Part shown: positions 24,700-54,539 of the stretch, one piece after another
How positions within the stretch are numbered: position 1 is the stretch's first letter
How the letters are laid out: every line of letters begins with the position of its first letter
IMG/VR virus record: IMGVR_UViG_3300044716_000090
Span: 40,813-104,812 of that record
Reading direction: 5' to 3' (one strand)
DNA length: 64,000 bases
Source of the DNA: a virus
Lineage: Duplodnaviria; Heunggongvirae; Uroviricota; Caudoviricetes; Crassvirales
Translations under genes and position numbers: made by a program
Notes under the pieces: generated by a model
Seen by the model: only the letters and a program-made list of their open reading frames with translations
Database searches by the model: none
Told to the model about the DNA's origin: nothing

Positions 24700-24707
24700 T
24701 TTATAAA

Positions 24708-24974
24708 TTATTTATGAATTAAGAGTTTTACTTTACTAGCTATCATCTGTACAGTAAAGTGACTAGCGTAGTCAGGGTTACAGAACTTGTAAGCCAAGAT
24801 CCTTTTATAATTTAGTAAGTCACCAATTACAACCCCTGGTACAGGATAGTTTAAAGAGAACACAATATTGTTATATTGATTATTTGCCAAGTCTGTTAAC
24901 TTGCAATCAATATCAGCTAAGAGTACAGGTATAGTTGTACAATCAACACAGTTTGTAAGCCTTGGTGATAACAT
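24708..24974 (-). CDS. Hypothetical small protein (88 aa)
   Basis: ORF in track, tight spacing. Confidence 0.45.
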   Translation of the reverse strand: MLSPRLTNCVDCTTIPVLLADIDCKLTDLANNQYNNIVFSLNYPVPGVVIGDLLNYKRILAYKFCNPDYASHFTVQMIASKVKLLIHK

Positions 24975-25087
24975 TTTTTATTCTTTGAGTTGCTTGCTTC
25001 AGCTTGTAATTACATGCTGAACATAAGCCATTAATTAATTGACAACCACAGCCTACCTTTAGGCCGCATTCTCTACAGTTTGCCATG

Positions 25088-25645: not shown

Positions 25646-25728
25646 GTCTTTAAAATAAATATGCCAGAGGATTTGAGAAATATCCTCTCACCCTCTGGCA
25701 TAGGTTATATGATTCTACTTGTATTCTC

Positions 25729-26871: not shown

Positions 26872-26898
26872 TTTGTTTTATTTAAATTGTGAAAATAA

Positions 26899-28755: not shown

Positions 28756-30309
28756 TTAGAATTGTGGTATTTCTTCGATTAATACTGTACGTGATAAATC
28801 TTCAATGAATACATCACAACGGTCTTTCATCCAAATCTCATAACCAGGGAATTTGTTTGCAGAACTCATACCTTGAGACTTAGCAAAACCTAAGTGGTGA
28901 CGAGTACCATCGATATAACCCCAAGTCATTGAAGGAGCACCCTTCATACGTACTTCACGGATGTTGTTTACCATTGAACCATCGCTCATTGGAGATACAT
29001 CAAACACCATGAATACAGGAGTAGATTTTTTGTTCTGACCGAATTCTAAGTTAGTTTGAGGAAGGTCTAATTCTTTTAAGTGAATTAGTTCAACACGACC
29101 TGTTTCACGTGTAACCATTGCATCGAATGCAAAGTTGTAAGTGATGTGTTGACCTTCTCCTTGCATGTAGCGATTACCAGAATCAGCCATGAAAGTTAAA
29201 CCAGAATTAAGTGCATCATTTTTAAGAGCTTGTTGGAACACATCAAAGCCAGCTTCGTTTGTGTACATTTTAACTCTACGATCCTTAACATCAACACGTC
29301 TGTAGAATAAGTCACCAAACACTGAACGAATCAAGTTTGCAGTGAACTCACCACGGTTGTATTGTACTAAGTTACCGTTATTACGCATTCTGTGGTAAAC
29401 ACCAGCAGATGTACGCTTTAATTCTTGCTTAGAACCATTAGTCTTCACGGTACCAGGCTTAGCCCAGATCATACGCTTAACTTTTAATTCTAACATAGAC
29501 TTACGCATCCAGAACTCAATAAATGGTTCCCATTTAACATCGTTACGAGTTAAAGGTAATTGGTTACGTCTTTGTGGAGCATATACTAAGATGTCAAGAG
29601 GCTTACCAGAAGCATCACGCATCATTTTATCATCAGCCCACTCAGTGATTTTGTGCTCATAACCATATGCAGAACCTAAAGATTCAAACATAGTGATTTG
29701 CTCACCTAAACGAGGAAGACCTAATAAGTCTTGATCGAATTCACCGATAGCAGCATCAACTAATTCTAGTTCGATACCAGTTTGTAAGAAAGTAGCACTT
29801 ACGTAATCTACTTGAGGGTTGTCAGTCACAAGAGTGAATGTGTACAAGAAACCAGCGTTCCAAGGTTGAGGATCCTTGATAACGTAGAAACGAGGACCAT
29901 ACTGACGAGTACCTACAGAAACAATAGCGTTCTTAGAAAACTCATTTGTGTCAATTACAAGAGAAAATTCTTGACCATCGATACCTGGCTTATCTAAAGC
30001 TAGAGTGGTATCAGGGATGTCAATGATTTTTGGAAACTTGTAAGGAACTTGTACTTGCCACTTCCAAGCATCACTGTTATTATCGATATAGTAAGGAGTA
30101 GACTTGTTGATCATGTCTAGGAAATCATTACTGTAAAGAGAACTCTGAGTATACAAACTGATAATTTTCTTATCATAATCTGCTGGCTCAGTTGAGTGAA
30201 AACTCTCCAAGTGGTTAGAATCTGTTAACTTACCTACTGCACGCTTGTCCATAGAAGCAACACGAGCATACGTAAATCCAGTTAAACCTGGGATTGTTTG
30301 AATTGCCAT
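28756..30309 (-). CDS. Major capsid protein, putative (517 aa)
   Basis: Assigned by position (terminase, portal, scaffold, then this gene) and size. Followed by a strong hairpin. No motif proof available by eye. Confidence 0.55.
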   Translation of the reverse strand: MAIQTIPGLTGFTYARVASMDKRAVGKLTDSNHLESFHSTEPADYDKKIISLYTQSSLYSNDFLDMINKSTPYYIDNNSDAWKWQVQVPYKFPKIIDIPDTTLALDKPGIDGQEFSLVIDTNEFSKNAIVSVGTRQYGPRFYVIKDPQPWNAGFLYTFTLVTDNPQVDYVSATFLQTGIELELVDAAIGEFDQDLLGLPRLGEQITMFESLGSAYGYEHKITEWADDKMMRDASGKPLDILVYAPQRRNQLPLTRNDVKWEPFIEFWMRKSMLELKVKRMIWAKPGTVKTNGSKQELKRTSAGVYHRMRNNGNLVQYNRGEFTANLIRSVFGDLFYRRVDVKDRRVKMYTNEAGFDVFQQALKNDALNSGLTFMADSGNRYMQGEGQHITYNFAFDAMVTRETGRVELIHLKELDLPQTNLEFGQNKKSTPVFMVFDVSPMSDGSMVNNIREVRMKGAPSMTWGYIDGTRHHLGFAKSQGMSSANKFPGYEIWMKDRCDVFIEDLSRTVLIEEIPQF

Positions 30310-31730: not shown

Positions 31731-32261
31731 CTAATCAAGATTGTTTGTAATCGTGTCATTTATCAACCTAAAACTCTTGATTGGAGCTAGGTCAGTAAGT
31801 GTAACTTGTTGAATCTCAACCCCCCACTTCCTTGCTTCCACTCTAACTTTCTTTGTCAGGGTGTTATCAAGTTCCGAATCTGTACATTCTTCCAGGGACA
31901 TAGACATGATTACGTTTTTTATGACACTTTGTGACATGTCAGCTATTGCATCTTGGGCATCAAATACTTCTAATAAGAATGTTTTCACATCTGATATCTT
32001 GTATTTGATTACACCCTTGACAACAATGTTCTGTCTATCACTAGTATACAAAGATTGTGCTGGAAGGCTTAATGTTGTAATAACGACATGTTGATCAATC
32101 ACCTCATCTACAAATGGTATCTTTGGATGGAATCCAGGTTTTAACACTTTTTTAAATTTACCAAATCTTAGAAGTACAGCTTCCTCATAATCCCTGATAA
32201 TAATACCAGGGAGTACGTCTGAGCCAAATTGTAACACAACATCAATCAGCCTATCTAACAT
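31731..32261 (-). CDS. SPFH/band-7 (stomatin/prohibitin-like) domain protein (176 aa)
   Basis: IIRDYEEAVLLRFGKFKKVLKPGFHPKIPFVDEVIDQHVVITTLSLPAQSLYTSDRQNIVVKGVIKYKISD matches the band-7 core (E.AVV.RFGK, L.PGLHF.IPFID.V, T.D.N.V.VD.VV.YRI.D). Lies between portal and scaffold. Confidence 0.7.
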   Translation of the reverse strand: MLDRLIDVVLQFGSDVLPGIIIRDYEEAVLLRFGKFKKVLKPGFHPKIPFVDEVIDQHVVITTLSLPAQSLYTSDRQNIVVKGVIKYKISDVKTFLLEVFDAQDAIADMSQSVIKNVIMSMSLEECTDSELDNTLTKKVRVEARKWGVEIQQVTLTDLAPIKSFRLINDTITNNLD

Positions 32262-32263
32262 AA

Positions 32264-34849
32264 TTACTTAGTTTTCTTACTCGCTCTATTCTTAGCATTC
32301 TCTTTAGCAATAGCTAAATCATTTGCTTGGTTCTCTCTAGCCACCTTTAGTTTCTCTTTTTCTATTTCTAGTTTCTGAGCAGCTAGGTTATTCTTAGATT
32401 GAATATCACTCATCTTTGTCTCATATTCTTTAACAGCTTTTGATTGTTCAAATGCTAACTTATTGATTTCCAATACATCAGGAGCTCCAGACATATCTAA
32501 ATCTGATAAAGGACCACTTTTTGATTCAGCAGCAATGAGAGCAATCTCCTTCTTATTGATCCTATCAAGTTCAGCTTGGTAATCATCATGAGCCAATTGT
32601 TTCTCTTGAGCTTCTTGAGCTTGTTGGATTTGAGCCATGGTATTTTGCTGTTGAACTTCCATTTGTTGCTGTTGCATATCCAACTGTTGTTGTTGCATAG
32701 CATCTTGCTTATCCTTAAGAGTCTTGAACACTTTCTTCATCTTACGTACAGAATCAGTGCTGTAAAGTTCAATGATGTCATGTAATGAACCACCATTTTG
32801 TATAACAGCTTGAGACAATCCACGTAATTCGTTAAACATCTTCTGATCCTCAGGACGATTAGTTAAGAACACCTTGAGGTCACGGAATCTAAGGTCAGAT
32901 CCATTCACCTGTACAAACGCTGATTCTCCATCAGAAGTAATGTATGATAGGGTGGATTGCGGTTTACTAGATTCTACATATAAAGCAGCATCAATGATAG
33001 CTTGGTACAATTGACCAAGAACATACTCGTGAGCTACGAATAAAGGTTCTGTTTGAGAATAAGATTGTGTAAGAGCTGCATTTGTACCTGTAGCAGATTC
33101 ACTAGCAGATATAGATCCCATTCTTTGTCTAGACATACCCACTAGTTCCCAACATTCAGTTTTTAACTGCATGGCTAATGTGTAACGAGATTGAATCTCC
33201 TGCGTACGTGTAAGGTCAATATCTCTAAACTGATTAAAGCTAGAAGGACTCTTTAAGTTCTCAGGACTATCATCAATAAAGACAACCCCTCTGTTACGAG
33301 CTTCTAGTTCCCATATGTCTAATGCATCTTGAGCATCACCATCCTTAGGAACAGGAATGTGTCTAATAGATGTTAAATACACCTTACCTACTTCCTTCTC
33401 AAGAAGTGTGTAAAGCTGATTCATACATACATTATATAACACTTGGAAAGGTTTCATAAGATCTACTAGAGACTTAGCCTCTGTATTCTTAACCTCGTGT
33501 ACCAATCCAATGATAGGACAATAACTTAATAATTTGTATGGTTTGATATGGTAGATGTCTGGACCAATCTTGATACCTTGGTACCATTGGTTAATCCAAC
33601 CCCATTCTAGAGAAACTTCTGTAGGAATAGTCTTGCTCTTATAGTTCTCATCTACAAGCATAGATTGTTCGTTACCCATTTCATCTAAATAGATAAGTTT
33701 ACCAATCTTCTTCTTAGAGATCCAATAGGCTCTAACAACTACATACTTATAACCAAATGAGCTAACGTTAGATGTTAATCCCAAGAAGTCTTTAAGTCCA
33801 TCATCGTTCTCTTTCATTTCTGATTCAATAATCATTCTTGTTTGTAGAACAAGAGGATCGTATGTATCGTATTGTACTGAATCAGTACCAGGTATTGCAT
33901 CTGGATTACCAAGATTAGATTCACGTACATTGATAAGACCATAGTCTTGTAGTGAACTTCTTAGGTGATCAATCTCGTCTTTGGTTAAATCAGGAATAGC
34001 TTCAATGATTTCTGATAGTTCCATAACCTGTACAATACCAGCAGCATATGCTCCTTGTGCTCTACCTGTAGGATCAGAAACATATTTTCTATCTGGTGTA
34101 GTGAGGAACCAAGTGTTCTTAGGGTTAGCCACCTCAATGTTAAATCCAAGCTTAGAGTTGTCCTCATAGATATGATAGAACTCTCTAGCTGAAATTAACA
34201 TATCTCTGAAGGCATCTTCTGATTTCTCTTTAAGATTGAACTCAGCTTTCTGACATGTAAGAATATGGTTAGCCCATTTCTCAGCAACAGATGTGTAGCT
34301 ATCTAGCTCATCTTTCACCTGATCCATTGTCATTTGCTCAAGCTCTTCTTCCTCTAGTTCAGCCCCTTGTAATTCAGCCTTTTGTAATATCTTTTGCTTA
34401 GCTTGGCTAATAACATATTCCTGTAGAATACCAGTCTTGAATTCCAATTCTTCAGATTGACTATCAGCATCAAATGCCTTTACACGGAAAGCATCTGGTC
34501 TTTTAGAGATTTCTCCAACCAACTCGTTAAGAGGTGTGGTGATGATAGAATACATCTTTACATATGAAGGAAGATTTAAGTTAGCTTCAAGAGTTTGTGT
34601 AAAGCTACTTACAACAGGCTCTTGGTAAAAATCCTCCATACGCAAAATACCCTTGACAAGATCATAGTTCTTAACAAAGGTGTCTCTATTCTTCACATAC
34701 TCAGCGTATGACTTATTAGCAAAATAGTCCATTGTGTTTTTAATCCAACTCTCATCTTGCTTTTCCTTCTCAGTTTTAAACTGATCTGGAAATATATTTA
34801 AATATGCATACCTAATCGTAGCATCTTTTGTATACCGTATAATTGCCAT
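32264..34849 (-). CDS. Portal protein, putative (861 aa)
   Basis: Immediately downstream of the large terminase, sharing its stop/start position at 34849. Size fits large podovirus portals. C-terminal Q/E/K-rich tail. Confidence 0.55.
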   Translation of the reverse strand: MAIIRYTKDATIRYAYLNIFPDQFKTEKEKQDESWIKNTMDYFANKSYAEYVKNRDTFVKNYDLVKGILRMEDFYQEPVVSSFTQTLEANLNLPSYVKMYSIITTPLNELVGEISKRPDAFRVKAFDADSQSEELEFKTGILQEYVISQAKQKILQKAELQGAELEEEELEQMTMDQVKDELDSYTSVAEKWANHILTCQKAEFNLKEKSEDAFRDMLISAREFYHIYEDNSKLGFNIEVANPKNTWFLTTPDRKYVSDPTGRAQGAYAAGIVQVMELSEIIEAIPDLTKDEIDHLRSSLQDYGLINVRESNLGNPDAIPGTDSVQYDTYDPLVLQTRMIIESEMKENDDGLKDFLGLTSNVSSFGYKYVVVRAYWISKKKIGKLIYLDEMGNEQSMLVDENYKSKTIPTEVSLEWGWINQWYQGIKIGPDIYHIKPYKLLSYCPIIGLVHEVKNTEAKSLVDLMKPFQVLYNVCMNQLYTLLEKEVGKVYLTSIRHIPVPKDGDAQDALDIWELEARNRGVVFIDDSPENLKSPSSFNQFRDIDLTRTQEIQSRYTLAMQLKTECWELVGMSRQRMGSISASESATGTNAALTQSYSQTEPLFVAHEYVLGQLYQAIIDAALYVESSKPQSTLSYITSDGESAFVQVNGSDLRFRDLKVFLTNRPEDQKMFNELRGLSQAVIQNGGSLHDIIELYSTDSVRKMKKVFKTLKDKQDAMQQQQLDMQQQQMEVQQQNTMAQIQQAQEAQEKQLAHDDYQAELDRINKKEIALIAAESKSGPLSDLDMSGAPDVLEINKLAFEQSKAVKEYETKMSDIQSKNNLAAQKLEIEKEKLKVARENQANDLAIAKENAKNRASKKTK

Positions 34850-36876
34850 TATGTAAAAAGTTTACGTTTTCTTTTATTAAATATTCCTCTTGATGTAGAA
34901 AATAAAGGATTCTTTGGTCCTCCTGAATACATTGCTTTCACTCTATCATCACTAGACCCACCAATCTTTCCAAAGATAGGATCCATCTTAAGTGCTTGAG
35001 CGATAGCTAGTTCTGCAGCAATGATACGGTCAAAGTTACCTGAATCATTATACTGAATAACTTCTTCAAGTAGCACAGGATCAAATATCTTACTCACACC
35101 CAACACTTCTCTTATAGTTTCACCAGCTTCATTAGTCTCCTTATATATCGTTCCTTCTAGATACTTCTTCAAGCAGTTGTGAAGATAGTCAATTATCTTC
35201 TGACTTGAACGATGTATTCCATACTCACGTTTAACAGTGGTATTTGGTACAATCTCCATAAGCCACTGAGGTTGCTTCTCTAGATAGTGAGCATCCCCTT
35301 TGGCTTTCATATATTCTATAAACGATATATCATCATTCTCACACAAGGTTCTAGCATTGTAATACTTGATAAGTAGACGAGCTTGTTCTTCCCAAGTTTC
35401 CTTCTTATCAGGTCTAGCACAATACGAAGCTACGAACATATCTTGATATTTCTCACCTGTAAGCTCATGCATTCTTTTATAAATGTAAACAGATCCTAAT
35501 GAGCTTGAATACGCAGATTGTCCTTGTCTGTAAGGATCGACTCCTGCTACATATAATCCATATGGAGGATTATCAATAGGGAATTCGTATATGACTACAG
35601 GAGCATTCTTTTGATCACTATTCTTTAGAGGGAAGTTTGATATAGGAAGTTTATCCGTAAACTCATGACTTATCTTCTCTCCATCATTGAATAATATAAT
35701 AGGTGTACCTGTTCTTTCTTGTTGTAATAGTTTACTCTTCTGTCTTTTAGCAGCTTCAATGTCAAAGATGTTTGTATCCTCATTAAGGAATATATCATCC
35801 ACCTCTTGTGGGTAGTACATCTTTTCTTTTAGATAGGCAACTCTATCACCAGCCTTCTTAAGTCTTTCTAAGTTTTGGACAGTGATTTGATCAGCCTTCT
35901 CTTGGTCACTTACCAACATCTCAATCTTATGTAAGTCGGATGTGTAAGGTTCATTTAAGAAAGCTCCAAGTGTACTTTTATCTTTGGCCTCCATTCTATA
36001 TTTATTAGAAATAAAGAGTCCATGTGTACGAGCTGTGTCTTTCTCATTATTATATGTAAGGAAGTTGAAGTTGTCTACATCAAACATTAAGCTCTTTGCA
36101 TCCATAAATTTCTTCATGTCACCACCAGTCCCAGTAAGAATAGGGCTACATCCCCACCCATATGGTGTAGTGAAACCAGGAATAGCCGCCTGTAAACCTC
36201 TAAGAAAATTTCCTTTACCGATCTCATCTATAATTAGTTTACGTGGTTTTGTACCTGCGATAGCTTCCTCATTATTACCTTCATCAAGGTTACGAATTAG
36301 GATGGAAGAAAAAGGGATACGTTCTCCAGACTTAGTCTTGATACCAAGTGTAACTTGGTTTTTCCAGTTATCCTCAATTCTCTGCCATCTCCAATATTCT
36401 GGAATGAAGTTAAGCCCCTTATCAATCTTATCTGTGATAAGCTTAATATCTGGAGCGTTCAAACCAGCAATAATGTTTTGTGAGTTTTCATCAAATGTTG
36501 CACCCCATGCAATATAAGATGCCTCAATAACGGACTTAGCAAAACGTCTAATACCTAGAATGACTAATCCCTTTCTTTCTTTTTGGGCTCTGTCAATTTC
36601 GTTTGTTACTAGCCACTCGTTATCACGTAATAAAGGATTAGCATATTTCTGTGCAATCCTTCCATACTCATCAATAATATCCACCTCTGTATGCCAGATG
36701 TTTAGGTGCCAATATAAAAAGGGGTTGATATATACACCCCCCATCATAGCACCATTTAAACATAGGTCTTTATGAAAATCATAGAATAGTTTATACTCCT
36801 CAGATGCTCTGTCAGGCAGGCGCTTCTGATTGATAAACCAGTCTTTGTAATCTATACTCTGTACGTGTACACTCAT
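34849..36876 (-). CDS. Terminase large subunit, putative (675 aa)
   Basis: Deviant Walker A LVILGIRRFAKS (GxRRxxKS type, as in TerL ATPases). Size and position immediately before the portal gene. Confidence 0.65.
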   Translation of the reverse strand: MSVHVQSIDYKDWFINQKRLPDRASEEYKLFYDFHKDLCLNGAMMGGVYINPFLYWHLNIWHTEVDIIDEYGRIAQKYANPLLRDNEWLVTNEIDRAQKERKGLVILGIRRFAKSVIEASYIAWGATFDENSQNIIAGLNAPDIKLITDKIDKGLNFIPEYWRWQRIEDNWKNQVTLGIKTKSGERIPFSSILIRNLDEGNNEEAIAGTKPRKLIIDEIGKGNFLRGLQAAIPGFTTPYGWGCSPILTGTGGDMKKFMDAKSLMFDVDNFNFLTYNNEKDTARTHGLFISNKYRMEAKDKSTLGAFLNEPYTSDLHKIEMLVSDQEKADQITVQNLERLKKAGDRVAYLKEKMYYPQEVDDIFLNEDTNIFDIEAAKRQKSKLLQQERTGTPIILFNDGEKISHEFTDKLPISNFPLKNSDQKNAPVVIYEFPIDNPPYGLYVAGVDPYRQGQSAYSSSLGSVYIYKRMHELTGEKYQDMFVASYCARPDKKETWEEQARLLIKYYNARTLCENDDISFIEYMKAKGDAHYLEKQPQWLMEIVPNTTVKREYGIHRSSQKIIDYLHNCLKKYLEGTIYKETNEAGETIREVLGVSKIFDPVLLEEVIQYNDSGNFDRIIAAELAIAQALKMDPIFGKIGGSSDDRVKAMYSGGPKNPLFSTSRGIFNKRKRKLFT

Positions 36877-38716: not shown

Positions 38717-38795
38717 ATATAATTAACGCAAAGGTAGTTGAATTTCAATCATCTACAAATAACTTAAATAGTTATTTATAACACCTAATGCTATA

Positions 38796-39065
38796 TTATG
38801 CATCATTTTCTTCATTCTCAATCCAAAACACAATACATACATTAATGAAAAAGAAACCTAGACGTAATTCTCTCTCTATGTTACCGTCATCTAATGTGAA
38901 TTCTGTATAGGATAAACCTATAAGGAAATAAGGACTCCTGAATAAGTTAATCTCCAATGCAAAATCTATCGAGTTATATCTGGAGAAACCATGTACTAGG
39001 GATGTGACAATCAGTAATGTCAGTATTATATATATCATGCTATTAGTTTTTAACCCACCCTCCAC
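38796..39065 (-). CDS. Small hydrophobic (membrane) protein, tentative (89 aa)
   Basis: MIYIILTLLIVTSLVHGF N-terminal TM-like segment and a second hydrophobic stretch. Lies in the control region. Confidence 0.3.
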   Translation of the reverse strand: MEGGLKTNSMIYIILTLLIVTSLVHGFSRYNSIDFALEINLFRSPYFLIGLSYTEFTLDDGNIERELRLGFFFINVCIVFWIENEENDA

Positions 39066-39320
39066 CCCAAAGGTAAGGGGAGGGAATTCATATTAACAAA
39101 TTTATTTTCAAATTGTGGATAACTTATTATATGCCTATAAATATAATGTGTCATAAAAGGGACATATTATATGCAAGGACATTCCTTATAAGACACATTA
39201 TGTAAAGCAATAGCTTGACAAAACGTAAGGCTAGGTAAAGCTATACCTTGACAATCTAGGAAGTGAAAGGCTGCCAAACCTGGAAGTGTTTGAACCATCT
39301 GGAAATTCCAGAGAGTTCAA

Positions 39321-39539
39321 CTATATCATCTCTATATCATCCCCCTTACCATTCATGGGATTGTCATACACCCTAATATCATCAGAATAGAAATGTTTGA
39401 TGATGCCTCCAGGTAGCCTAACTAACCAGACGGTATTAACATTTAACCCATAGTCCATAATGAACAGAGCTTCCCCTTCTCCATGTGCTTTGCACCAAAC
39501 AGGAATTGTGGGATTGAGCTGTAACATCATTCCATACAT
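39321..39539 (-). CDS. Hypothetical small protein (72 aa)
   Basis: ORF in track with protein-like composition. Confidence 0.35.
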   Translation of the reverse strand: MYGMMLQLNPTIPVWCKAHGEGEALFIMDYGLNVNTVWLVRLPGGIIKHFYSDDIRVYDNPMNGKGDDIEMI

Positions 39540-39721
39540 ATATTACATTTTTATTTAATACAAATATACGACATTCTTTTGGAAGAAAAAAATTTTTCTA
39601 AAACTAGAGGTCTGTCATATGCATGGGGGAAGAGTCCTCTCCATATTGCAACCCCCAGTACAGATTGGGGAGTTGACACAGTCCCCCTATTAATCATTTC
39701 ATAATCAAAAAAACAAAACAG

Positions 39722-40105
39722 ATGACAAAGAATTACGTTATCAACAATGGCAGTTTTACTGCAAATGGCAATTTCAGTGGTTACACAGCATTGGGCGAAA
39801 GAGTCCACATTTTTGGCAGACAAATGGAAGCATTAGGTTGGAAGGGCAACGCTGATGTTAGTTTCCCATTCTATGCAATTGGTCAGATGAAACAGATTAA
39901 CCAATTGAACGAGAAGGGTGAGACTATTGGAACAGCTGATAGACTTACAGCTTTGAGTGCATTCAAGACACGCGAAGAGATTAAGCAAGCTCATGCAGAC
40001 AGCTCATTGCTTGACATTGAGATTCAGCAAGAGATTAAAGCACAAGCAAGCAGCGCAGGCTTAACAGAATCTGCAATCAATAGCTTGTTACAAGCTTCAT
40101 TCTAA
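39722..40105 (+). CDS. First rightward gene, hypothetical (127 aa)
   Basis: ORF in track. Followed by a hairpin terminator candidate. Preferred over the overlapping Cys-rich minus ORF 39551..39823. Confidence 0.5.
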   Translation: MTKNYVINNGSFTANGNFSGYTALGERVHIFGRQMEALGWKGNADVSFPFYAIGQMKQINQLNEKGETIGTADRLTALSAFKTREEIKQAHADSSLLDIEIQQEIKAQASSAGLTESAINSLLQASF

Positions 40106-40117
40106 TTCATAATAGGG

Positions 40118-40150
40118 AGTGACGTTCTAATTAATAGAACGTTGCTCTCT
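40118..40150 (+). terminator. Hairpin terminator candidate
   Basis: ACGTTCTA-ATTAA-TAGAACGT is a perfect 8-bp stem at 40121..40141, followed by U-rich TTGCTCTCTTATTAT. Confidence 0.4.
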
Positions 40151-40336
40151 TATTATATGTATGGGTGGGCAATTATTGCATTAGGGTTGGGGATATTACG
40201 AGATAACTCATTGATTTACAATATATTCTGTGTGAATATATGAGTTGCTGTGTAACCTCTCATGGATAAATACACCTTTTTTGATAACAGCTACATGTAA
40301 AACATAATACAATACATATAGCATTAAATAACAATT

Positions 40337-40531
40337 ATGCCACAATTAGCAATTAGAACAGATGATGATCATGAACTATGGGTAGATAGAGATATTATTC
40401 ATATACCTAGACTAGGAGATAATATACATCTTCCTTATGCTGGTTATAAGATATATAGAGTGATAGAAGTTACTTGGCTATATGGTGAGAGTAACAATTA
40501 TTCTATTATGGTTATAGTCAAGACATTATAA
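40337..40531 (+). CDS. Hypothetical small protein (64 aa)
   Basis: ORF in track. Confidence 0.4.
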   Translation: MPQLAIRTDDDHELWVDRDIIHIPRLGDNIHLPYAGYKIYRVIEVTWLYGESNNYSIMVIVKTL

Positions 40532-40742
40532 TGTACCATTTCAGCTTCCCAAGGGCTGACAGATGTAATCAGTGGGAGTCATGACCCAACCATCTACCTC
40601 ATTAGGGTTTAATAAACCTAGGTCTATAAGAAGGATGTATTACATTTGAGTACAGAGGGATATTTGTTGCACATGGAATACATTAGAATATATATGCTGA
40701 GGCAACATTAGGCTATATATTCGCTTTATAAACACATATAAC

Positions 40743-40940
40743 ATGAGAAAGATTACATTATTCCTTCTTATAACCACTATTGTTGGTTGCACCATTAGTT
40801 CTCGTCCTTCTACTAATGGATATCAGATGACAGTTGATGCTGATTCTATTTACATCTTTGATGGAGATAGATATGTTGGTTCATTAGCTTGTTCAGCTGT
40901 TCCTGCATTAGATAGTCTTATTATAGAGGACAATAGATAA
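40743..40940 (+). CDS. Small lipoprotein (65 aa)
   Basis: MRKITLFLLITTIVGC-T is a signal peptide with a lipobox (IVGC). Confidence 0.6.
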   Translation: MRKITLFLLITTIVGCTISSRPSTNGYQMTVDADSIYIFDGDRYVGSLACSAVPALDSLIIEDNR

Positions 40941-40973
40941 TAACACACATTACTAACCATTTAAACACATTCA

Positions 40974-41105
40974 CATGAAGATTTTATTTAAAGGCTTTAT
41001 ATTTGTAATAGCATTAACATCATTATTCACCGCTTGCAGTGGTCCAAACAAGTTAAAATGTCCTAGTGACACATCTTGGGAGACATCACGAAAGCACAAC
41101 CTTAG
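40974..41105 (+). CDS. Second small lipoprotein (43 aa), not in the ORF track
   Basis: Hand translation gives MKILFKGFIFVIALTSLFTAC-SGPNKLKCPSDTSWETSRKHNP. Signal peptide plus lipobox (FTAC). Confidence 0.5.
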
Positions 41106-41112
41106 ATAAATT

Positions 41113-41652
41113 ATGTTTATAGATTGCAAGCTCGTACTTAAATCATATGTACCTGAGAAATTAGAGAAGGGCATGTGGTTCGTAAGAGTTAAAACAGAAG
41201 TGATATATGGAGATAAAACAGAATATCTCTCCGTACATGAACTAGCATTAGTTCCTAGGGATATGGAAACATATCTCACATACAATGGCTATCCTGTTAA
41301 GCCATATTTAGTATATCCAATGATTAATCCTGATGATACAGAGGTTATTGCAGCCTATCCAGAGGAAATAGGTTGGTGGGATGAAGGTGATCATGTGGAT
41401 GAATTGAGGGATATAACAGTGAAAGATATCAACAATATATTGGAATGGGACAATTCAATGGTACAAATAGAGGTGCTTGATGATGAGGAAGATGAAGATG
41501 GTACACCAATTCCAGTGTTATACAATGATAAGGTGACTCTCAGAGATGTACATACAATAGATCATGATGATGATGAAGATTGGGATGATGAAGACTATTT
41601 AGATGATGGAGATGATGATGTATGGGATCCTGAGGACCACAATACAGAATAA
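41113..41652 (+). CDS. Strongly acidic protein (179 aa); DNA-mimic/anti-restriction candidate
   Basis: C-terminal half is EVLDDEEDEDG ... DHDDDEDWDDEDYLDDGDDDVWDPEDH. Confidence 0.6.
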   Translation: MFIDCKLVLKSYVPEKLEKGMWFVRVKTEVIYGDKTEYLSVHELALVPRDMETYLTYNGYPVKPYLVYPMINPDDTEVIAAYPEEIGWWDEGDHVDELRDITVKDINNILEWDNSMVQIEVLDDEEDEDGTPIPVLYNDKVTLRDVHTIDHDDDEDWDDEDYLDDGDDDVWDPEDHNTE

Positions 41653-41677
41653 TATTTATTAACCAACACACACAAAC

Positions 41678-41851
41678 ATGCAAGAATTACTAAACTTATT
41701 ATCACAGGTGGTTAAAAACCAAGAACAGCCACCTAAGATTGAAATCAAATTTAAAACAGTGGAACCAGACACCAGACCACAATTTGAAGAATGGTGTCAG
41801 GAATACAATGTTGGAATGCTTTGGGATCGCTCTGCGGTCCATCTTGGTTAG
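41678..41851 (+). CDS. Small ORF (57 aa), not in track
   Basis: Hand translation gives MQELLNLLSQVVKNQEQPPKIEIKFKTVEPDTRPQFEEWCQEYNVGMLWDRSAVHLG. Fills a gap. Confidence 0.35.
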   Translation: MQELLNLLSQVVKNQEQPPKIEIKFKTVEPDTRPQFEEWCQEYNVGMLWDRSAVHLG

Positions 41852-41930
41852 TGTTATGTGGTGGATAAGAGAGCTCTCAATTAAGTTTGGGAGCTCTTTT
41901 TATTTGTACATTAATTAAATTCAAATCAAA

Positions 41931-44653: not shown

Positions 44654-46606
44654 ATGAAGATACTCATCTATGACATAGAAACCATGCAGGAGCTGTTTCT
44701 AATAGGTATATACAATCCTGATACACAGCAGTGGTATGAATTTCAGGTGAGTAGAAACATTAACCAATTAGATGCATTCCAAAGGTTTACAGAGGAACAT
44801 GCTGATTACTATTGGGTTGGGTATAACAATCTACGCTTCGATAGTCAGGTGGTTGAGTGGGTGTTACGTAATCATAATGATTGGTATGATCTAAGTGCAT
44901 TAGAAGTGTGTGCTAAAATAGCACAGAAAGCTGCTGATGTGATACATGATGCTAATTATGATGTATTTCCTGAGTATAGGGAAGAATGGCTCACCCTCAA
45001 ACAAATAGACCTATTCAGAGTGAATCACTATGACAATAAGAATCGTAGGGTTAGCTTGAAGAGGTTAGAGTTTGAGATGGATCTTCCAAACATTGAAGAG
45101 ATGCCTATTCATCATACTAAAACTGATATGACAGATGAGGAGATACAGCTCACTATTGACTATTGTCGTAATGATATATATGCCACATATGAATTCTATT
45201 TAGTAACCATTGGTCAAACAGACCATCCTTTGTACAAGGGTAATAACCAAATAGAGCTCAGACAGGATATATACAACGAGTTTGGTATTCCTTGCTTAAA
45301 CTATTCTGACAGTAAGATAGGTGATGAGATGATTAAGAAGTATTACTGTCAAGAGAAGGGTATGTCTTACAGTGATTTACCAAAGAAGGGATATTTCAGA
45401 AAGCAAGTGAGAGCCAAAGATTGCATTGCTCACTATGTGGATTTCCAGACACCAGAGCTAAAAGACTTCCTGAAGCATGTAAAGAAGCAGATATTCACAC
45501 TCACTGATGAATTTAAAGAGTCATTAGAGTTTTATGGCAACACTTACACATTTGCAAAAGGTGGGCTACACACAGAAAACAAGCCCAAGATATTTGAGGC
45601 TGATGAAGATAACATCATAGTTGACTGGGATGTTAGTTCATACTATCCAGCTATCATCATTAACAATGGTAAATATCCACAGCATTTGGGTAAAGAGTTT
45701 CTTAGAGGATACAAACAGATGTTTGATAAACGATTGGAACTCAAACCATTAGCTAAAAAGGATAAGAAGATTAAAGGTATTGTTGGTGCATTGAAGCTTG
45801 CAGTTAACTCTGTGTATGGTAAGAGTTCTGATATGCAGTCGTGGATCTATGATAGACAACTAACTATGTTTACCACTATTACGGGTGAGCTGAGCTTACT
45901 TATGCTTATTGAGGCATATGAATTAGCTGGCATACGTGTAATATCTGCTAATACAGATGGAGTGACAATACTTGTAAAAAATACAAGTTTTGATACTATG
46001 ACTGCTATTAATAAGTGGTGGATGGATGTTACACAATATGAGCTAGAACGCACTGATTATCAAAAGATTATATTCTCAACAGTAAATGACTATTTAGCAA
46101 TTAAAACCGATGGAGAAATTAAGAAGAAGGGTGACTTCCTCACTGATTTTGAGTTACACAAGAATAAGTCAGCTAGGATTGTACCTATTGCTCTCGAGCA
46201 TTATTTTGTTAATGGTGTCCCTGTGGCTGATACCATTCATAATTGTACAAACATATATGACTTTTGTCTCAGGCAGAAAGCAAGCAAGGACTTCCATTAT
46301 GAAGGAGTAAGCAATGGTAAGAAAACAGTGTACAATAAGCTAATCAGGTATTATGTGTCTAATAAGGGTGAGAAGCTGTTAAAGGTTAAGAACCCTGAAT
46401 GTCAATCTAATGCTGCAGATGTATCTCAAGTGGAAGCAGGTGATTGGGTGATGCATGTATGTAATCATCTACCACCAGACCATCCTCTGGATAACATCAA
46501 TTATGCTTATTACATAGAACGTGCTGAACGTATTATCAGCAAAATACAGTTAGAAGGTAAAAAGAGAAAGATAACAATCAATCCTAATCAATTAAGTTTA
46601 TTCTAA
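44654..46606 (+). CDS. Family-B DNA polymerase with 3'-5' exonuclease (650 aa)
   Basis: Exo I is YDIET. Exo II is YNNLRFDSQV. Exo III is YCRNDIYATYEFY. Motif A is DVSSYYPAII. Motif B is KLAVNSVYGKSS. Motif C region is ISANTDGVTILV. Confidence 0.85.
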   Translation: MKILIYDIETMQELFLIGIYNPDTQQWYEFQVSRNINQLDAFQRFTEEHADYYWVGYNNLRFDSQVVEWVLRNHNDWYDLSALEVCAKIAQKAADVIHDANYDVFPEYREEWLTLKQIDLFRVNHYDNKNRRVSLKRLEFEMDLPNIEEMPIHHTKTDMTDEEIQLTIDYCRNDIYATYEFYLVTIGQTDHPLYKGNNQIELRQDIYNEFGIPCLNYSDSKIGDEMIKKYYCQEKGMSYSDLPKKGYFRKQVRAKDCIAHYVDFQTPELKDFLKHVKKQIFTLTDEFKESLEFYGNTYTFAKGGLHTENKPKIFEADEDNIIVDWDVSSYYPAIIINNGKYPQHLGKEFLRGYKQMFDKRLELKPLAKKDKKIKGIVGALKLAVNSVYGKSSDMQSWIYDRQLTMFTTITGELSLLMLIEAYELAGIRVISANTDGVTILVKNTSFDTMTAINKWWMDVTQYELERTDYQKIIFSTVNDYLAIKTDGEIKKKGDFLTDFELHKNKSARIVPIALEHYFVNGVPVADTIHNCTNIYDFCLRQKASKDFHYEGVSNGKKTVYNKLIRYYVSNKGEKLLKVKNPECQSNAADVSQVEAGDWVMHVCNHLPPDHPLDNINYAYYIERAERIISKIQLEGKKRKITINPNQLSLF

Positions 46607-52770: not shown

Positions 52771-53769
52771 ATGATAAACGGAAAAAGAAAAACAAAGCTT
52801 ACACCAGAGTCCGTACTAGACAAGATAACTGATTATGATATATTTAGATTCTATATGCCTGATAAGAGTTGGAAGCTTAACCAAGTGACCTATTCTCCAT
52901 TTAGGAATGAGAACAATCCTTCCTTTGTAATAGGGAATAAAAGGGGCTTTATATCATTTATTGACTTTGCTGATACCAGTAAGAGAGGTGATTGTTTTGA
53001 GTTTGTTAAGCTCCTTCACAATCTATCTAGTATGAATGATGTGTTAAAGATTATAGACAGAGATTTTGGATTAGGTATAGTTACCAAGGGTACAGAAGAA
53101 TACAAGAAAATAACAGCTGAATACAAACAACCAGATGCTGTTAAGAGGTATTCTCTCATCCAGGTGGTAACAAAGAAGTTTACACAAGAGGAGTTAGCCT
53201 ATTGGAATCAATATCATATAGATATAGAGGATCTAAAGAGTAACAACGTCTATTCTATCAAAAAGGTGTATTTGAACAAGAGTTTGTTCTACACTAGTGG
53301 TCAGGAAATGAGGTTTGGTTATTTCTATGATGGACATTGGAAGATTTATACACCGTTTGGAGATAAGAAAAACAAATGGTTACCTAATAATGTTCCTATC
53401 ACCGCTATGGATGGTAAAGAGGACATAGTTAATTGCAAGGTGGCATTCATCAATAAGAGTAAGAAGGACTATATGGTTATGAAGAAGATATTTCCATGTA
53501 GCTGTGCTGTACAGAATGAAGGTGTTGGATGTTTCTCTCCAGAGAACCTAGAATATCTTAAAGCTAATTCTGACAGACAAATCCTCAGCTTTGATAGCGA
53601 TGTTACAGGTGTAACTAACTCACAACAGATTACCAAGCTATTTGATTTTGATTATGCTAATGTTCCCCGTAAGTATCTAACAGAGGGTATAAAGGACTGG
53701 GCTGATTTAGCAAAAGCTCATGGTATGGGAGCAATAGAATCTTATTTAAAACAAAAACACATTTTATAA
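52771..53769 (+). CDS. DnaG-like primase with a degenerate (Cys-less) zinc-binding-domain homologue and TOPRIM-like DxD (about 332 aa)
   Basis: YSPFRNENNPSFVIGNKRGFISFIDFADTSKRGDCFEFVKLL aligns with the DnaG zinc-ribbon [36 protein letters not shown], with the metal ligands replaced. Downstream LSFDSDVTG is a DxD TOPRIM motif. The track ORF starts at 52687, but the first 84 nt overlie the terminator-like element, so Met at 52771 is preferred. Confidence 0.55.
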   Translation: MINGKRKTKLTPESVLDKITDYDIFRFYMPDKSWKLNQVTYSPFRNENNPSFVIGNKRGFISFIDFADTSKRGDCFEFVKLLHNLSSMNDVLKIIDRDFGLGIVTKGTEEYKKITAEYKQPDAVKRYSLIQVVTKKFTQEELAYWNQYHIDIEDLKSNNVYSIKKVYLNKSLFYTSGQEMRFGYFYDGHWKIYTPFGDKKNKWLPNNVPITAMDGKEDIVNCKVAFINKSKKDYMVMKKIFPCSCAVQNEGVGCFSPENLEYLKANSDRQILSFDSDVTGVTNSQQITKLFDFDYANVPRKYLTEGIKDWADLAKAHGMGAIESYLKQKHIL

Positions 53770-54539
53770 TGACTACTGAAAACTACAACACAACAAAAGA
53801 ATTGATTCTTGCAACAGATATTCCTGCACAGACAAGAACTTACAAACCAGTTAGCCACGGTCAATTGATTGATCTTACAATGGAAGGCATTCAAAAAGCT
53901 GGATTTGTATTAGACAAAGAAACATACACAGCTAGTACAAATGGTCAGATTGCTAATGGTAGATTTACTATCAAGAACGTAATGGATAGTGAGATGCAAT
54001 TAGAGATTGGCTGGCAGAATAGCTACAACAAGCAACTTACATTAAAGTTTGCCCTAGGTACACGCATTATGATTTGTCAGAATGGTTGTGTATCAGGTGA
54101 TTATGGTGCATTTAAGAAGAAACACGTAGGTGAAATACAATCATTTACACCAAATGCTATTAGTGAATACATCAAGGCTGCAGGAGAAAGCTTTAGAACT
54201 ATTCAGTTCCAGAGAGATCAAATGAAGCAAGTGGAAGTTACTAAGCGTACCAAAGCTGAATTGATTGGTAGAATGATGATTGAAGAGCAGTTTATTACAT
54301 CTACACAATTAAACATCATTACCAGAGAATTAACTAGCCCTACACATGATTATGGTGCACCTGATAGCTTATGGGAGTTGTACAACTATACAACATTTGC
54401 TATGAAGGAAACACATCCTGCAAACTGGATGAGTAGTCACATTAAAGCACATTCATTCTTTGTAGATGCTTCAGGACTTCATACAGCAGTTGATGAGATG
54501 CCTATGATTATGCAATTAGAACAATTAGAATTATTTTAA
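53769..54539 (+). CDS. Hypothetical protein (256 aa)
   Basis: ORF in track, ATGA overlap with the primase gene. Confidence 0.5.
   Translation: MTTENYNTTKELILATDIPAQTRTYKPVSHGQLIDLTMEGIQKAGFVLDKETYTASTNGQIANGRFTIKNVMDSEMQLEIGWQNSYNKQLTLKFALGTRIMICQNGCVSGDYGAFKKKHVGEIQSFTPNAISEYIKAAGESFRTIQFQRDQMKQVEVTKRTKAELIGRMMIEEQFITSTQLNIITRELTSPTHDYGAPDSLWELYNYTTFAMKETHPANWMSSHIKAHSFFVDASGLHTAVDEMPMIMQLEQLELF

What the first reader, a model, noticed from the sequence alone, without database searches (positions are those of the whole stretch)
40743..41652. Two tandem small lipoproteins followed by a hyper-acidic protein at the head of the rightward early operon
Both small ORFs have textbook lipoprotein signal peptides (MRKITLFLLITTIVGC and MKILFKGFIFVIALTSLFTAC); the second is under 60 aa and missed by the ORF track. 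Phage small lipoproteins such as T5 Llp block the receptor and give superinfection exclusion. The next gene encodes a protein whose C-terminal half is almost pure D/E (DHDDDEDWDDEDYLDDGDDDVWDPEDH), reminiscent of DNA-mimic anti-restriction proteins (Ocr/ArdA-like charge pattern) that are typically the first genes expressed.
Basis: partly seen in the sequence, partly recalled or inferred. Interest (0 to 1): 0.65.

Follow-up and report, generated by a model that had tools for sequence, protein, structure and literature searches.

The report
Two small phage lipoproteins, one acidic protein
Three real but unrelated small genes of an uncultured crAss-like phage sit side by side: two swappable accessory lipoproteins that probably act on the infected cell's envelope, and a conserved, very acidic protein of unknown fold that is not a relative of the known DNA-mimic anti-restriction proteins.

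Summary
The three ORFs exist at the stated coordinates and evolve under purifying selection (dN/dS 0.08-0.46). ORF1 (65 aa, IVG|C16) and ORF2 (44 aa, FTA|C21) are two of only three peptides in the 64-kb window that pass the PROSITE-type lipobox rule. The window is an uncultured crAss-like phage (CrAss tail-ring Pfam hits). The three genes are not one system. ORF1 and ORF2 are accessory cassettes, gained, lost and exchanged among close relatives. ORF3 is on every related contig long enough to judge, including those fished with ORF1 or ORF2 as bait. ORF2 is an in-frame deletion derivative of a ~100-aa protein (two TM helices + internal lipobox + short basic Cys-Pro tail) that also occurs as 2-TM-only, lipoprotein-only and split-gene forms. 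ORF3 (179 aa, pI 4.05) has a confident, beta-rich, acidic domain (residues 1-148, invariant IGWWDEG..DEL.D core) with no structural or sequence match in any available library, plus a disordered 33-aa tail (58% D/E, no K/R). It is not Ocr or ArdA, not an SSB, and is almost absent from cellular genomes. "Head of the early operon" is only partly right: two ORFs and a strong hairpin lie upstream. Superinfection exclusion and DNA mimicry remain plausible but untested.

The parts
40743..40940 (+). ORF1: 65-aa prolipoprotein. The signal peptide MRKITLFLLITTIVG is followed by Cys16 (codon 40788-40790). The mature 49 aa comprise a flexible linker, a small three-stranded beta-meander, and the nearly invariant C-terminus VPALDSLIIEDNR. 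Accessory cassette.
   Evidence: lipobox rule; 32 homologues, 25/28 aligned keep G-C, 3 have a Cys-less hydrophobic N-terminus; dN/dS 0.13-0.44; AF2 pLDDT 62: helix 2-18, strands 27-49. Absent from L005, L007, L009, L031, L033. Paired with a distant ORF3 clade in L027.
40975..41109 (+). ORF2: 44-aa prolipoprotein. The signal MKILFKGFIFVIALTSLFTA is followed by Cys21 (codon 41035-41037). The mature peptide is a 23-aa basic lipopeptide, SGPNKLKCPSDTSWETSRKHNLR, attached to the lipidated Cys; it has one nearly invariant free Cys-Pro. It is the lipoprotein-only state of a modular 2-TM + lipobox locus.
   Evidence: 15 and 23 (in-frame ~165-nt deletion relative to the 99-104-aa long form, same start context); 69 clusters, long form dominant; lipobox-like FTAC/LGSC and CP conserved; internal Met not conserved; 2-TM-only state; split genes in L020; same design with an unrelated tail in L027; dN/dS 0.10-0.46.
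41113..41550 (+). ORF3 residues 1-146: acidic, beta-rich globular domain (net charge about -20). Invariant residues are P14, G59, P61, V62, I86, W88, D90, G92, D96, D100 (the IGWWDEG..DEL.D core). No recognisable fold relative.
   Evidence: 94 hits; 256 clusters at 50% identity; all unnamed, no Pfam; pLDDT about 90 for residues 1-148, pTM 0.70; no PDB or BFVD match; domain charge, median -20; dN/dS 0.08-0.23.
41551..41652 (+). ORF3 residues 147-179 plus stop: disordered polyacidic tail (19 D/E, 0 K/R, with interspersed W/Y/H). Tail length and sequence vary between relatives but the tail is always acidic. Some clades insert a DnaJ-like CxxCxGxG x2 zinc ribbon.
   Evidence: pLDDT below 50 for 149-170 and 176-179; 149 of 150 tails of at least 10 aa are net negative; 23 contain CxxCxGxG; about 16 members have no tail; the ...D(Y/H)xTE tip occurs only in a subclade.
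41678..41851 (+). 57-aa gene immediately downstream of ORF3. The motif F..W....VG.L..DRS is kept next to ORF3 even in relatives 40-47% identical. It is the last gene of the hairpin-bounded unit.
   Evidence: conserved neighbour; dN/dS 0.12-0.92, weaker constraint; no family hit.
40114..40150 (+). Terminator-like hairpin (16-bp stem) after the 127-aa first plus-strand gene. It marks the upstream boundary of the unit that holds ORF1-ORF3.
41867..41900 (+). Terminator-like hairpin (14-bp stem plus T-run) after the 57-aa gene. It marks the downstream boundary of the unit.
40337..40531 (+). 64-aa variable cassette gene upstream of ORF1 (weak hit to phrog_14677, unknown function). It has no DNA match in close relatives.
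40526..40742 (.). Non-coding spacer upstream of ORF1. Its ends (40526-40570 and 40660-40740) are conserved in relatives even where the flanking genes differ, so it is a candidate regulatory and recombination joint.

Best explanation
The finding is three independent genes that happen to be neighbours in a hairpin-bounded transcription unit. The unit lies just inside the replication-side (plus-strand) block of an uncultured crAss-like phage.

ORF1 and ORF2 are accessory envelope proteins. Each is made with an N-terminal signal peptide ending in a lipobox. By inference from the standard pathway, each is exported by Sec, diacylglycerol-modified on the Cys by Lgt, and cleaved by signal peptidase II. 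This would leave a 49-aa and a 23-aa lipopeptide tethered to a membrane and facing the periplasm; neither has acidic residues after the Cys, which is the surface-export signal in Bacteroidota. ORF2 is the lipoprotein half of a two-module locus (2-TM hairpin + internal lipobox + short basic Cys-Pro tail), and here the hairpin has been deleted. Both genes belong to a rapidly swapped set of small membrane-protein cassettes. I infer that they remodel the infected cell's envelope, most likely to stop a second phage from adsorbing or ejecting its DNA (superinfection exclusion in the broad sense).

ORF3 is different. It is a core, syntenic gene of this phage group. It encodes a folded, strongly acidic domain of unmatched fold with an invariant Trp/Asp-rich patch, followed by a floppy polyacidic tail. 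I infer that it works as a polyanionic decoy. The invariant patch would give specific docking, and the tail would occupy the basic nucleic-acid-binding surface of a conserved target. Because of its core distribution, a host-takeover target (RNA polymerase or a nucleoid protein) or a phage DNA-metabolism partner is more likely than a strain-variable restriction enzyme.

Shown: gene reality, lipobox rule, conservation patterns, modularity, charge, disorder, lack of homology. Inferred: lipidation, location, timing and all functions.
For: - Gene reality and selection.
- Lipobox rule: two of only three passes in the window, against about 0.9 per shuffled window.
- Lipobox retention in relatives.
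- The same n-region/h-region/[AS]C/short basic tail design recurs with four unrelated tails: types A and B, L020, L027.
- The ORF2 locus exists in four natural states: fused, lipoprotein-only, 2-TM-only and split.
- ORF1 and ORF2 are absent from L031, L033 and L010-18, and ORF1 from L005, L007 and L009, while ORF3 is present on every related contig long enough to judge, whichever gene was the bait.
- In L027, ORF1 (76% identical) is paired with an ORF3 that is only about 47% identical.
- Conserved spacers flank swapped cassettes.
- ORF3 family: 256 clusters, invariant residues, acidic in both domain and tail. The fold is confident but unmatched.
- The family is almost absent from 185,579 species genomes and from cultured phages.
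- The tail composition equals that of the disordered DNA-mimicking segment of SPO1 Gp44 (57% D/E, no basic residues).
- Hairpins bound the unit. crAss-type tail-ring Pfam hits place the phage.
Against: - No experiment or dedicated predictor (SignalP/LipoP) was available. ORF2's -3 residue is Phe, which PROSITE accepts but the strict lipobox consensus does not.
- Some ORF1 relatives have Glu at position -2 (MEGC) or no Cys at all, so lipidation may not be essential.
- ORF2's tail is more basic than its N-terminus. By the positive-inside rule it could instead be a C-in membrane anchor.
- Nothing links either lipoprotein to a receptor. They are far from the tail genes.
- For ORF3, no partner is identified, no coordinates were available for a surface-charge analysis, and afdb50 could not be searched.
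- About 16 family members have no tail, so the tail is not indispensable.
- The host is not settled: the polymerase is closest to a Maribacter phage, but the capsid's only cultured relative is a cyanophage.
Confidence: 0.5

Rival explanations
1. ORF1 and ORF2 are Llp/Cor-type lipoproteins that jam the phage's outer-membrane receptor. ORF3 is an Ocr/ArdA-type DNA mimic that blocks type I R-M or BREX and is among the first genes expressed.
For: Lipobox signals are present. ORF3 has a charge density of -39 over 179 aa and a polyacidic disordered tail. The genes lie near the start of the plus-strand block. Small periplasmic lipoproteins that jam TonB-dependent receptors are an established exclusion mechanism.
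Against: No sequence or fold relation to Llp, Cor, Ocr or ArdA. The Llp/Cor disulfide is not possible: each mature peptide has only one non-lipid Cys, and in ORF1 that Cys is not conserved. The genes are not adjacent to tail or receptor-binding genes. ORF3 is a core syntenic gene, not a patchy accessory one. It is the fifth plus-strand ORF, behind a strong hairpin. Early timing cannot be verified.
Confidence: 0.15
2. ORF2 and its long form are lysis proteins. The ~100-aa long form would be a class-I-like holin (three TM segments, basic C-terminal tail in the cytoplasm). The short lipoprotein form would be an o-spanin-like outer-membrane lipoprotein whose single free Cys forms intermolecular disulfides.
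For: The long form has three hydrophobic segments and a short, highly charged basic C-terminus. There is one nearly invariant free Cys in the tail. No other lysis genes were recognised among the window proteins scanned.
Against: No neighbouring endolysin, and no i-spanin-like partner with an N-terminal TM and a periplasmic coiled coil. The gene sits in the replication-side block among swappable accessory cassettes. It can be reduced to either module alone or lost altogether in close relatives, which is unexpected for an essential lysis gene. The conserved [AS]-C at the end of the hydrophobic segment, preceded by a basic n-region, is a signal-peptidase-II feature and not a holin feature. A 23-aa mature peptide is short for a spanin.
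Confidence: 0.1
3. ORF3 is an accessory factor of the phage's own replication or transcription machinery. Its acidic tail would be a docking element, as in the C-terminal tails of SSB, T7 gp2.5 or T4 gp32, and not a decoy against host proteins.
For: It has a core, syntenic position a few kb upstream of the DNA polymerase in all relatives. Selection is strongly purifying, with invariant residues. There is weak partial similarity to OB/Tudor-like small barrels. A subclade shares a C-terminal tip motif. Zinc-ribbon inserts suggest protein-protein contacts.
Confidence: 0.2
4. The small ORFs are chance open frames whose hydrophobic N-termini only resemble lipoprotein signals by accident, in AT-rich DNA.
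For: Shuffled windows give about one lipobox-rule hit per 64 kb. A third, clearly spurious hit exists at 39460. ORF2 is only 44 aa.
Against: Both ORFs are conserved as open frames across many contigs, with dN/dS of 0.10-0.46. The two hits are adjacent and on the coding strand. The lipobox Cys is retained across divergent relatives.
Confidence: 0.02

Closest known systems
T5 Llp and the Cor family (T1, phi80): small phage lipoproteins that give superinfection exclusion by jamming FhuA
   Same: Small phage-encoded proteins with a lipoprotein signal peptide. They are predicted to face the periplasm and are non-structural accessory genes. Action on the envelope of the infected cell is plausible.
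   Different: No sequence similarity. Mature peptides are 49 aa and 23 aa, against 61 aa for Llp. Each has only one non-lipid Cys, so the Llp/Cor intramolecular disulfide is impossible. The genes are not next to the receptor-binding protein gene. The receptor and phenotype are unknown. ORF2 derives from a 2-TM fusion protein, which has no counterpart in Llp or Cor.
SPO1 Gp44: host-takeover protein with a flexible polyacidic segment that mimics DNA and binds RNA polymerase
   Same: A folded N-terminal domain plus a disordered segment of about 57-58% D/E with no basic residues. Both are non-structural phage genes.
   Different: No homology. Gp44's folded domain is a basic/acidic DNA-binding helix-turn-helix-like module, whereas ORF3's domain is beta-rich and uniformly acidic. 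ORF3's tail is half as long (33 aa against 67 aa). The target is unknown.
Ocr (T7 gp0.3) and ArdA: structured DNA-mimic anti-restriction proteins
   Same: Very high negative charge density (ORF3 net -39 over 179 aa; pI 4.05).
SSB-type proteins with acidic C-terminal tails (E. coli SSB, T7 gp2.5, T4 gp32)
   Same: A globular domain followed by a disordered acidic C-terminal tail. There are weak partial OB-like structural hits. The gene lies in the replication-side block.
   Different: The domain is strongly acidic (about -20), so it cannot bind ssDNA. The fold match is not significant. There is no conserved hydrophobic tip like DDDIPF.
T4 Imm and Sp: small early membrane proteins that block DNA entry from superinfecting phage
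   Same: Small early-region membrane proteins. The 2-TM module of ORF2's long form recalls the two-TM Imm (from my own knowledge, not tested here). The phage also carries rIIA/rIIB.
   Different: No homology detected (PHROGs). The window copy lacks the 2-TM module altogether.

Membership tests
Bacterial/phage prolipoproteins (Lgt/LspA substrates; PROSITE PS51257 rule) | Lys or Arg within the first 7 residues, followed by an uncharged hydrophobic stretch | tested here: met
   ORF1 has R2 and K3, then ITLFLLITTIV. ORF2 has K2 and K6, then GFIFVIALTSLFT.
Bacterial/phage prolipoproteins (Lgt/LspA substrates; PROSITE PS51257 rule) | A lipobox ending in Cys at position 15-35, with a small residue at -1 | tested here: met
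   ORF1 has I-V-G-C16, which matches the strict consensus. ORF2 has F-T-A-C21, which PS51257 accepts although Phe at -3 is outside the strict L/V/I consensus. The Cys is retained in 25/28 ORF1 relatives and in both ORF2 tail subtypes.
Bacterial/phage prolipoproteins (Lgt/LspA substrates; PROSITE PS51257 rule) | Actual lipidation and signal-peptidase-II cleavage (globomycin sensitivity, lipid labelling); a call by SignalP or LipoP | not testable with these tools
   No dedicated predictor or experiment was available.
T5 Llp / Cor superinfection-exclusion lipoproteins | Sequence homology to Llp or Cor | tested here: not met
   No PHROG, Pfam or NCBIfam family, and no tblastn match for ORF1 in 50,697 phage records at E up to 1.
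T5 Llp / Cor superinfection-exclusion lipoproteins | Intramolecular disulfide in the mature peptide | tested here: not met
   Mature ORF1 and mature ORF2 each have a single non-lipid Cys. In ORF1 it is replaced by Ser in several relatives.
T5 Llp / Cor superinfection-exclusion lipoproteins | Gene adjacent to the receptor-binding protein gene | tested here: not met
   The neighbours are small ORFs and ORF3. The tail genes (CrAss ring proteins at 18345-27630) are on the other strand, more than 13 kb away.
T5 Llp / Cor superinfection-exclusion lipoproteins | Blocks adsorption or infection by binding the receptor | not testable with these tools
   Host and receptor are unknown.
Ocr (PF08684) / ArdA (PF07275) DNA-mimic anti-restriction proteins | Sequence match to the family model | tested here: not met
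   No Pfam hit for ORF3 at E up to 0.1. None of the 94 homologues carries a Pfam domain.
Ocr (PF08684) / ArdA (PF07275) DNA-mimic anti-restriction proteins | A fold that mimics B-form DNA (Ocr helical dimer; ArdA elongated three-domain dimer) | tested here: not met
Ocr (PF08684) / ArdA (PF07275) DNA-mimic anti-restriction proteins | High density of surface negative charge | tested here: met
   52 D/E against 13 K/R; pI 4.05. The family-wide domain median is -20.
Ocr (PF08684) / ArdA (PF07275) DNA-mimic anti-restriction proteins | Inhibits type I R-M or BREX | not testable with these tools
   Needs an in vivo or in vitro assay.
SSB-type OB-fold proteins with an acidic tail | An OB fold with a basic or aromatic ssDNA-binding surface | tested here: not met
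Flexible polyacidic DNA mimics (SPO1 Gp44 type) | A disordered segment of at least ~55% D/E with no basic residues | tested here: met
   Residues 147-179 have 19/33 D/E and 0 K/R, with pLDDT below 50.
Flexible polyacidic DNA mimics (SPO1 Gp44 type) | Homology to Gp44, or binding to RNA polymerase | tested here: not met
   Homology was tested: no tblastn match in the phage collection at E up to 0.01. Binding to RNA polymerase is not testable with these tools.
Spanins (o-spanin) / holins | Located in a lysis cassette with an endolysin and, for an o-spanin, an i-spanin partner | tested here: not met
   No lysin, holin or spanin family hit among the neighbours or the ORF2 forms. The locus is dispensable in relatives.
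Crassvirales (placement of the phage) | crAss-type tail-ring proteins, with divergent structural and replication blocks | tested here: met
   CrAss_Ring_1 (1.5e-10) and CrAss_Ring_2 (9e-18) are above the Pfam cutoff; Ring_3_4 is below it. P22-type portal in a relative. Divergent layout. However, the capsid's only cultured match is a cyanophage at 26% identity, and the virion RNA polymerase was not checked.

The most novel reading that the evidence does not exclude
Two things could be new.

(a) The ORF3 family (256 clusters, found only in phages) could be a previously unrecognised, structurally novel class of core polyanionic decoy proteins in environmental crAss-like phages. It would combine a specific Trp/Asp docking patch with a disordered DNA- or RNA-mimicking tail to neutralise a conserved host nucleic-acid-binding machine.

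(b) The ORF2 locus could represent a new way of making phage lipopeptides: a 2-TM hairpin protein carrying an internal signal-peptidase-II site that releases a 23-27-aa lipopeptide. The two halves could also work alone, as shown by the natural lipoprotein-only (this window), hairpin-only and split forms.
Probability: 0.2. Interest if true: 0.6.

Novelty: new member of a known kind. Interest (0 to 1): 0.35.

Why it matters
crAss-like phages are abundant but almost all of their small non-structural genes are uncharacterised. This analysis turns a vague 'lipoproteins plus acidic protein' note into three separate, testable objects:

1. A swappable set of envelope-targeted cassettes that could explain exclusion between co-occurring environmental crAss-like phages.
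2. A modular 2-TM/lipobox locus with four natural states, which amounts to a ready-made natural deletion series.
3. A sizeable, phage-only protein family with a confident but unmatched fold and an always-acidic tail. It is a good candidate for structure determination and partner hunting.

It also warns against labelling every acidic phage protein as Ocr/ArdA-like: here membership fails on every testable criterion.

Tried and rejected
- **Near-identity search.** Megablast of the region against GenBank phages found no match.
- **tblastn against phages.** ORF3, ORF1 and two divergent ORF3-family members (P0265, P0252) gave nothing meaningful.
- **Family libraries.** Pfam, PHROGs, NCBIfam and PADLOC scans of all three ORFs, their neighbours and the relatives' accessory membrane proteins gave only sub-threshold noise. 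The NCBIfam 'lipo-invert' hit to ORF2's long form (17 bits against a cutoff of 37) is below threshold, and no literature on it was found.
- **Promoters.** Sigma-70 and Bacteroidota -7 (TAnnTTTG) scans were at chance level. No shared repeat was found in the spacers.
- **RNA families.** Rfam gave only sub-threshold chance hits. No tRNAs were found.
- **Internal start for the lipoprotein.** Rejected as a general mechanism for the long form, because the internal Met is not conserved.
- **SSB-like ORF3.** Rejected on charge.
- **P0229.** This 517-aa 'fusion' looks like a chimeric gene call and was ignored.
- **C-terminal tip.** The ...TE motif proved to be restricted to a subclade.
- **Host assignment.** It remains unresolved between Bacteroidota and other diderms.
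Full report
**What is there.** The window is a low-GC (about 35%) tailed phage with two divergent blocks. Minus-strand structural genes (terminase 34849-36876, portal 32264-34849, major capsid protein 28756-30309) run up to 38716. Plus-strand replication-side genes start at 39722 and include the DNA polymerase (44654-46606), helicases and rIIA/rIIB. Three tail proteins match Pfam families built on crAss-like tail-ring proteins: Ring_1 at 1.5e-10, Ring_2 at 9e-18, and Ring_3_4 below cutoff. The phage is therefore crAss-like. It has no close cultured relative: megablast finds nothing, the polymerase is at most 32% identical with the best match in a Maribacter phage, and the capsid's only GenBank phage match is a Leptolyngbya cyanophage at 26%. 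The host is a diderm, probably Bacteroidota, but that is not settled.

**The observation.** ORF1 (40743-40940, 65 aa), ORF2 (40975-41109, 44 aa) and ORF3 (41113-41652, 179 aa) are exactly as quoted. I applied a PROSITE PS51257-type rule: K/R in the first 7 residues, six uncharged residues, a lipobox, and Cys at position 15-35. Only 3 of 673 ATG-started peptides of at least 30 aa in the window pass. Two of them are these adjacent ORFs, and the third (39460) is a poor, non-hydrophobic match. Shuffled windows give about 0.9 hits. All three genes are open and conserved in related metagenomic contigs. Pairwise dN/dS is 0.13-0.44 for the ORF1 C-domain, 0.10-0.46 for the ORF2 lipobox and tail, and 0.08-0.23 for the ORF3 domain. 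They are real genes.

Two parts of the description need correction. First, only the last 33 residues of ORF3 are hyper-acidic (19 D/E, no K/R). Residues 76-146 are 31% D/E and lie inside a folded domain. Second, the trio is not at the very head of the block. A 127-aa gene (39722-40105) comes first and is followed by a 16-bp-stem terminator-like hairpin (40114-40150). A 64-aa gene (40337-40531) comes next. A second strong hairpin (41867-41900) follows the 57-aa gene downstream of ORF3. The likely unit is therefore about 40151-41900. Promoter scans are at chance level. In the crAss-like phage phi14:2, early transcripts made by the injected virion RNA polymerase have no common upstream motif. 'Early' therefore cannot be checked from sequence.

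**ORF1.** The family is narrow: 32 clusters, all at least 66% identical, all unnamed. Of 28 aligned members, 25 keep a G-C lipobox (IVGC, IGGC, LIGC, MEGC). Three have a hydrophobic N-terminus without Cys. The C-terminal 38 residues (YQMxVDADSIxxYDGDRYVGSLACSAVPALDSLIIEDNR) are almost invariant. What is constant is the export or tethering of a tiny module. AF2 gives a signal helix, a low-confidence linker and a three-stranded meander at pLDDT about 75. ORF1 is missing from several close relatives (L005, L007, L009) and from distant ones (L031, L033, L010-18). In L027 a 76%-identical ORF1 sits beside an ORF3 of the distant zinc-ribbon clade, which is about 47% identical. ORF1 is thus a cassette that moves independently.

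**ORF2.** In most relatives the homologous ORF is 99-104 aa. It has two hydrophobic helices, a charged loop ending in a basic 'FWKxxK' stretch, a third hydrophobic segment ending in FTAC or LGSC, and a 23-27-aa basic tail with a nearly invariant Cys-Pro 7-8 residues after the first Cys. DNA alignment shows that the window's 44-aa form (also found in L006 and P0341) keeps the same start context and has lost about 165 nt in frame. This fuses MKILF to KGFIFV... and creates a canonical N-terminal lipoprotein signal.

Other natural states exist. The 2-TM module occurs alone, with the lipoprotein part gone (L035-L037). In L020 the two modules are separate genes, a 58-aa 2-TM protein and a 41-aa lipoprotein with an ATGA overlap. 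The same design, with a basic n-region, a hydrophobic segment, [AS]-C and a short basic tail carrying a second Cys, recurs with unrelated tails in L020 and L027. The internal Met is not conserved, so internal initiation is not the general route to the lipopeptide. If the long form is matured, cleavage at the internal lipobox is the likely way, but this is inference. There is no family match in any library. A sub-threshold NCBIfam 'lipo-invert C-terminal anchoring' hit (17 bits against a cutoff of 37) is noted but not relied on.

**ORF3.** This is a different kind of gene. It defines a sizeable family: 94 hits in the word-indexed search and 256 clusters at 50% identity in the exhaustive profile search. 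None of the 94 word-indexed hits has an informative name or a Pfam domain; the profile-search library carries no annotation. The family was not detected in cultured phages. Among 185,579 species genomes the only hit is one 3-kb MAG contig. It is present on every related contig long enough to judge, whichever gene was used as bait. Its position is fixed, a few kb upstream of the polymerase, and it is usually followed by a small gene with the motif F..W....VG.L..DRS.

Acidity is a family constant. The domain's median net charge is -20. Of the 150 tails of at least 10 aa, 149 are net negative. Tail length and sequence drift by D/E indels. 23 tails contain a DnaJ-like CxxCxGxG x2 zinc ribbon, and about 16 members have no tail. 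A ...D(Y/H)xTE tip occurs only in a subclade.

**How it most likely works.** ORF1 and ORF2 carry the standard features of Lgt/LspA substrates. They lack the acidic residues after the Cys that direct Bacteroidota lipoproteins to the cell surface; that rule comes from my own knowledge, and the inference from it is mine. They would therefore be periplasm-facing lipopeptides. They belong to a set of small membrane-protein cassettes separated by conserved non-coding spacers and exchanged between close relatives. This pattern is typical of genes involved in phage-phage or phage-host conflict at the envelope. Superinfection exclusion in the broad sense (jamming a receptor from the periplasmic side as Llp does, or blocking DNA entry) is my preferred reading, but it is unproven.

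ORF3's core distribution, invariant Trp/Asp patch and always-acidic disordered tail suggest a polyanionic decoy with a specific docking surface. Its tail composition matches the disordered DNA-mimicking segment of SPO1 Gp44, which is 57% D/E with no basic residues and binds RNA polymerase. Because ORF3 is conserved and syntenic, not patchy, a conserved target is more likely than a variable restriction system. Candidate targets are host RNA polymerase, a nucleoid protein, or the phage's own DNA-metabolism machinery.

**Comparison with known families.** The two small ORFs meet the sequence definition of prolipoproteins. They fail every testable Llp/Cor criterion: homology, disulfide and gene position. 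ORF3 fails Ocr/ArdA membership on sequence and fold and shares only the charge. It fails the SSB test on domain charge. It matches only the compositional criterion of Gp44-type flexible mimics. The spanin/holin reading of ORF2 lacks lysis-cassette context and conflicts with the dispensability of the locus.

**Verdict.** The lipoprotein call is well supported. The Llp-like and Ocr/ArdA-like labels are analogies without membership. Novelty is modest: new, uncharacterised members of known kinds (small phage lipoproteins; polyacidic phage proteins). Two features deserve follow-up: the modular 2-TM/lipobox locus with its natural deletion series, and a phage-only acidic family with a confident but unmatched fold.

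Noticed in passing
window 38717-39721: About 1 kb between the divergent gene blocks is conserved at 76-90% nucleotide identity in close relatives but holds only short ORFs (for example a 72-aa minus-strand ORF at 39321-39539). The crAss-like phage phi14:2 has long, highly transcribed non-coding intergenic regions, so this could be a non-coding RNA, an origin or a regulatory region. Rfam finds nothing.
   Followed up: partly
window 39722-40742: Mosaic structure. Non-coding spacers (40145-40335, 40526-40570, 40660-40740) are conserved in relatives, while the genes between them (39722-40105 and 40337-40531) have no DNA match. This suggests cassette exchange by recombination in shared regulatory spacers.
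   Followed up: partly
window 39722-40150: The true first plus-strand gene (127 aa) has protein-level homologues at the same head position in distant relatives (148 aa in L031, 139 aa in L027, 146 aa in L035). It is followed directly by a 16-bp-stem hairpin, so it looks like a stand-alone unit. Function unknown, no family hit.
   Followed up: no
window 18345-19268, 19750-20475, 26899-27630 (minus strand): Pfam CrAss_Ring_1, CrAss_Ring_2 and (below cutoff) CrAss_Ring_3_4 hits identify the phage as crAss-like. However, the capsid protein's only match among GenBank phages is Leptolyngbya cyanophage Lbo-JY46 at 26% identity. This may link an environmental crAss-like lineage with a cyanophage.
   Followed up: partly
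window 31731-32261 (minus strand): A 176-aa SPFH/Band 7 domain protein (E = 4.9e-27) lies between the portal gene and the gene upstream of the capsid gene. This is an unusual member of a head-morphogenesis module.
   Followed up: no
L011-L018, L027 (ORF3 homologues); P0050, P0058, P0133, P0194: One clade of the ORF3 family carries a DnaJ-like double CxxCxGxG zinc ribbon embedded in the acidic tail (23 of 166 members analysed).
   Followed up: partly
L001-L005, L007-L009, L027, L031, L035 (just upstream of ORF3): A 45-48-aa gene (MKxIQLTPxEF..F.....F.Y.IE......V.I.A....LE.LGY) immediately precedes ORF3 in most relatives. It is missing in the window, L006 and L019, where ORF2 abuts ORF3 with a 3-nt gap.
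   Followed up: no
window 55639-59689: rIIA-like (771 aa) and rIIB-like (524 aa) genes are present in this crAss-like phage. There is also a DUF932 protein (53769-54539) and a weak UDG-superfamily hit (54541-55257).
   Followed up: no
L001-L004, L005, L009 (about 1.0-1.6 kb upstream of ORF3): Relatives carry another acidic 170-180-aa protein (MYYIINRTTNQ..., with a DDYNDKINQEYDEQDYNEPE stretch) in the same variable region. It has no homologue in the window and no PHROG hit.
   Followed up: no
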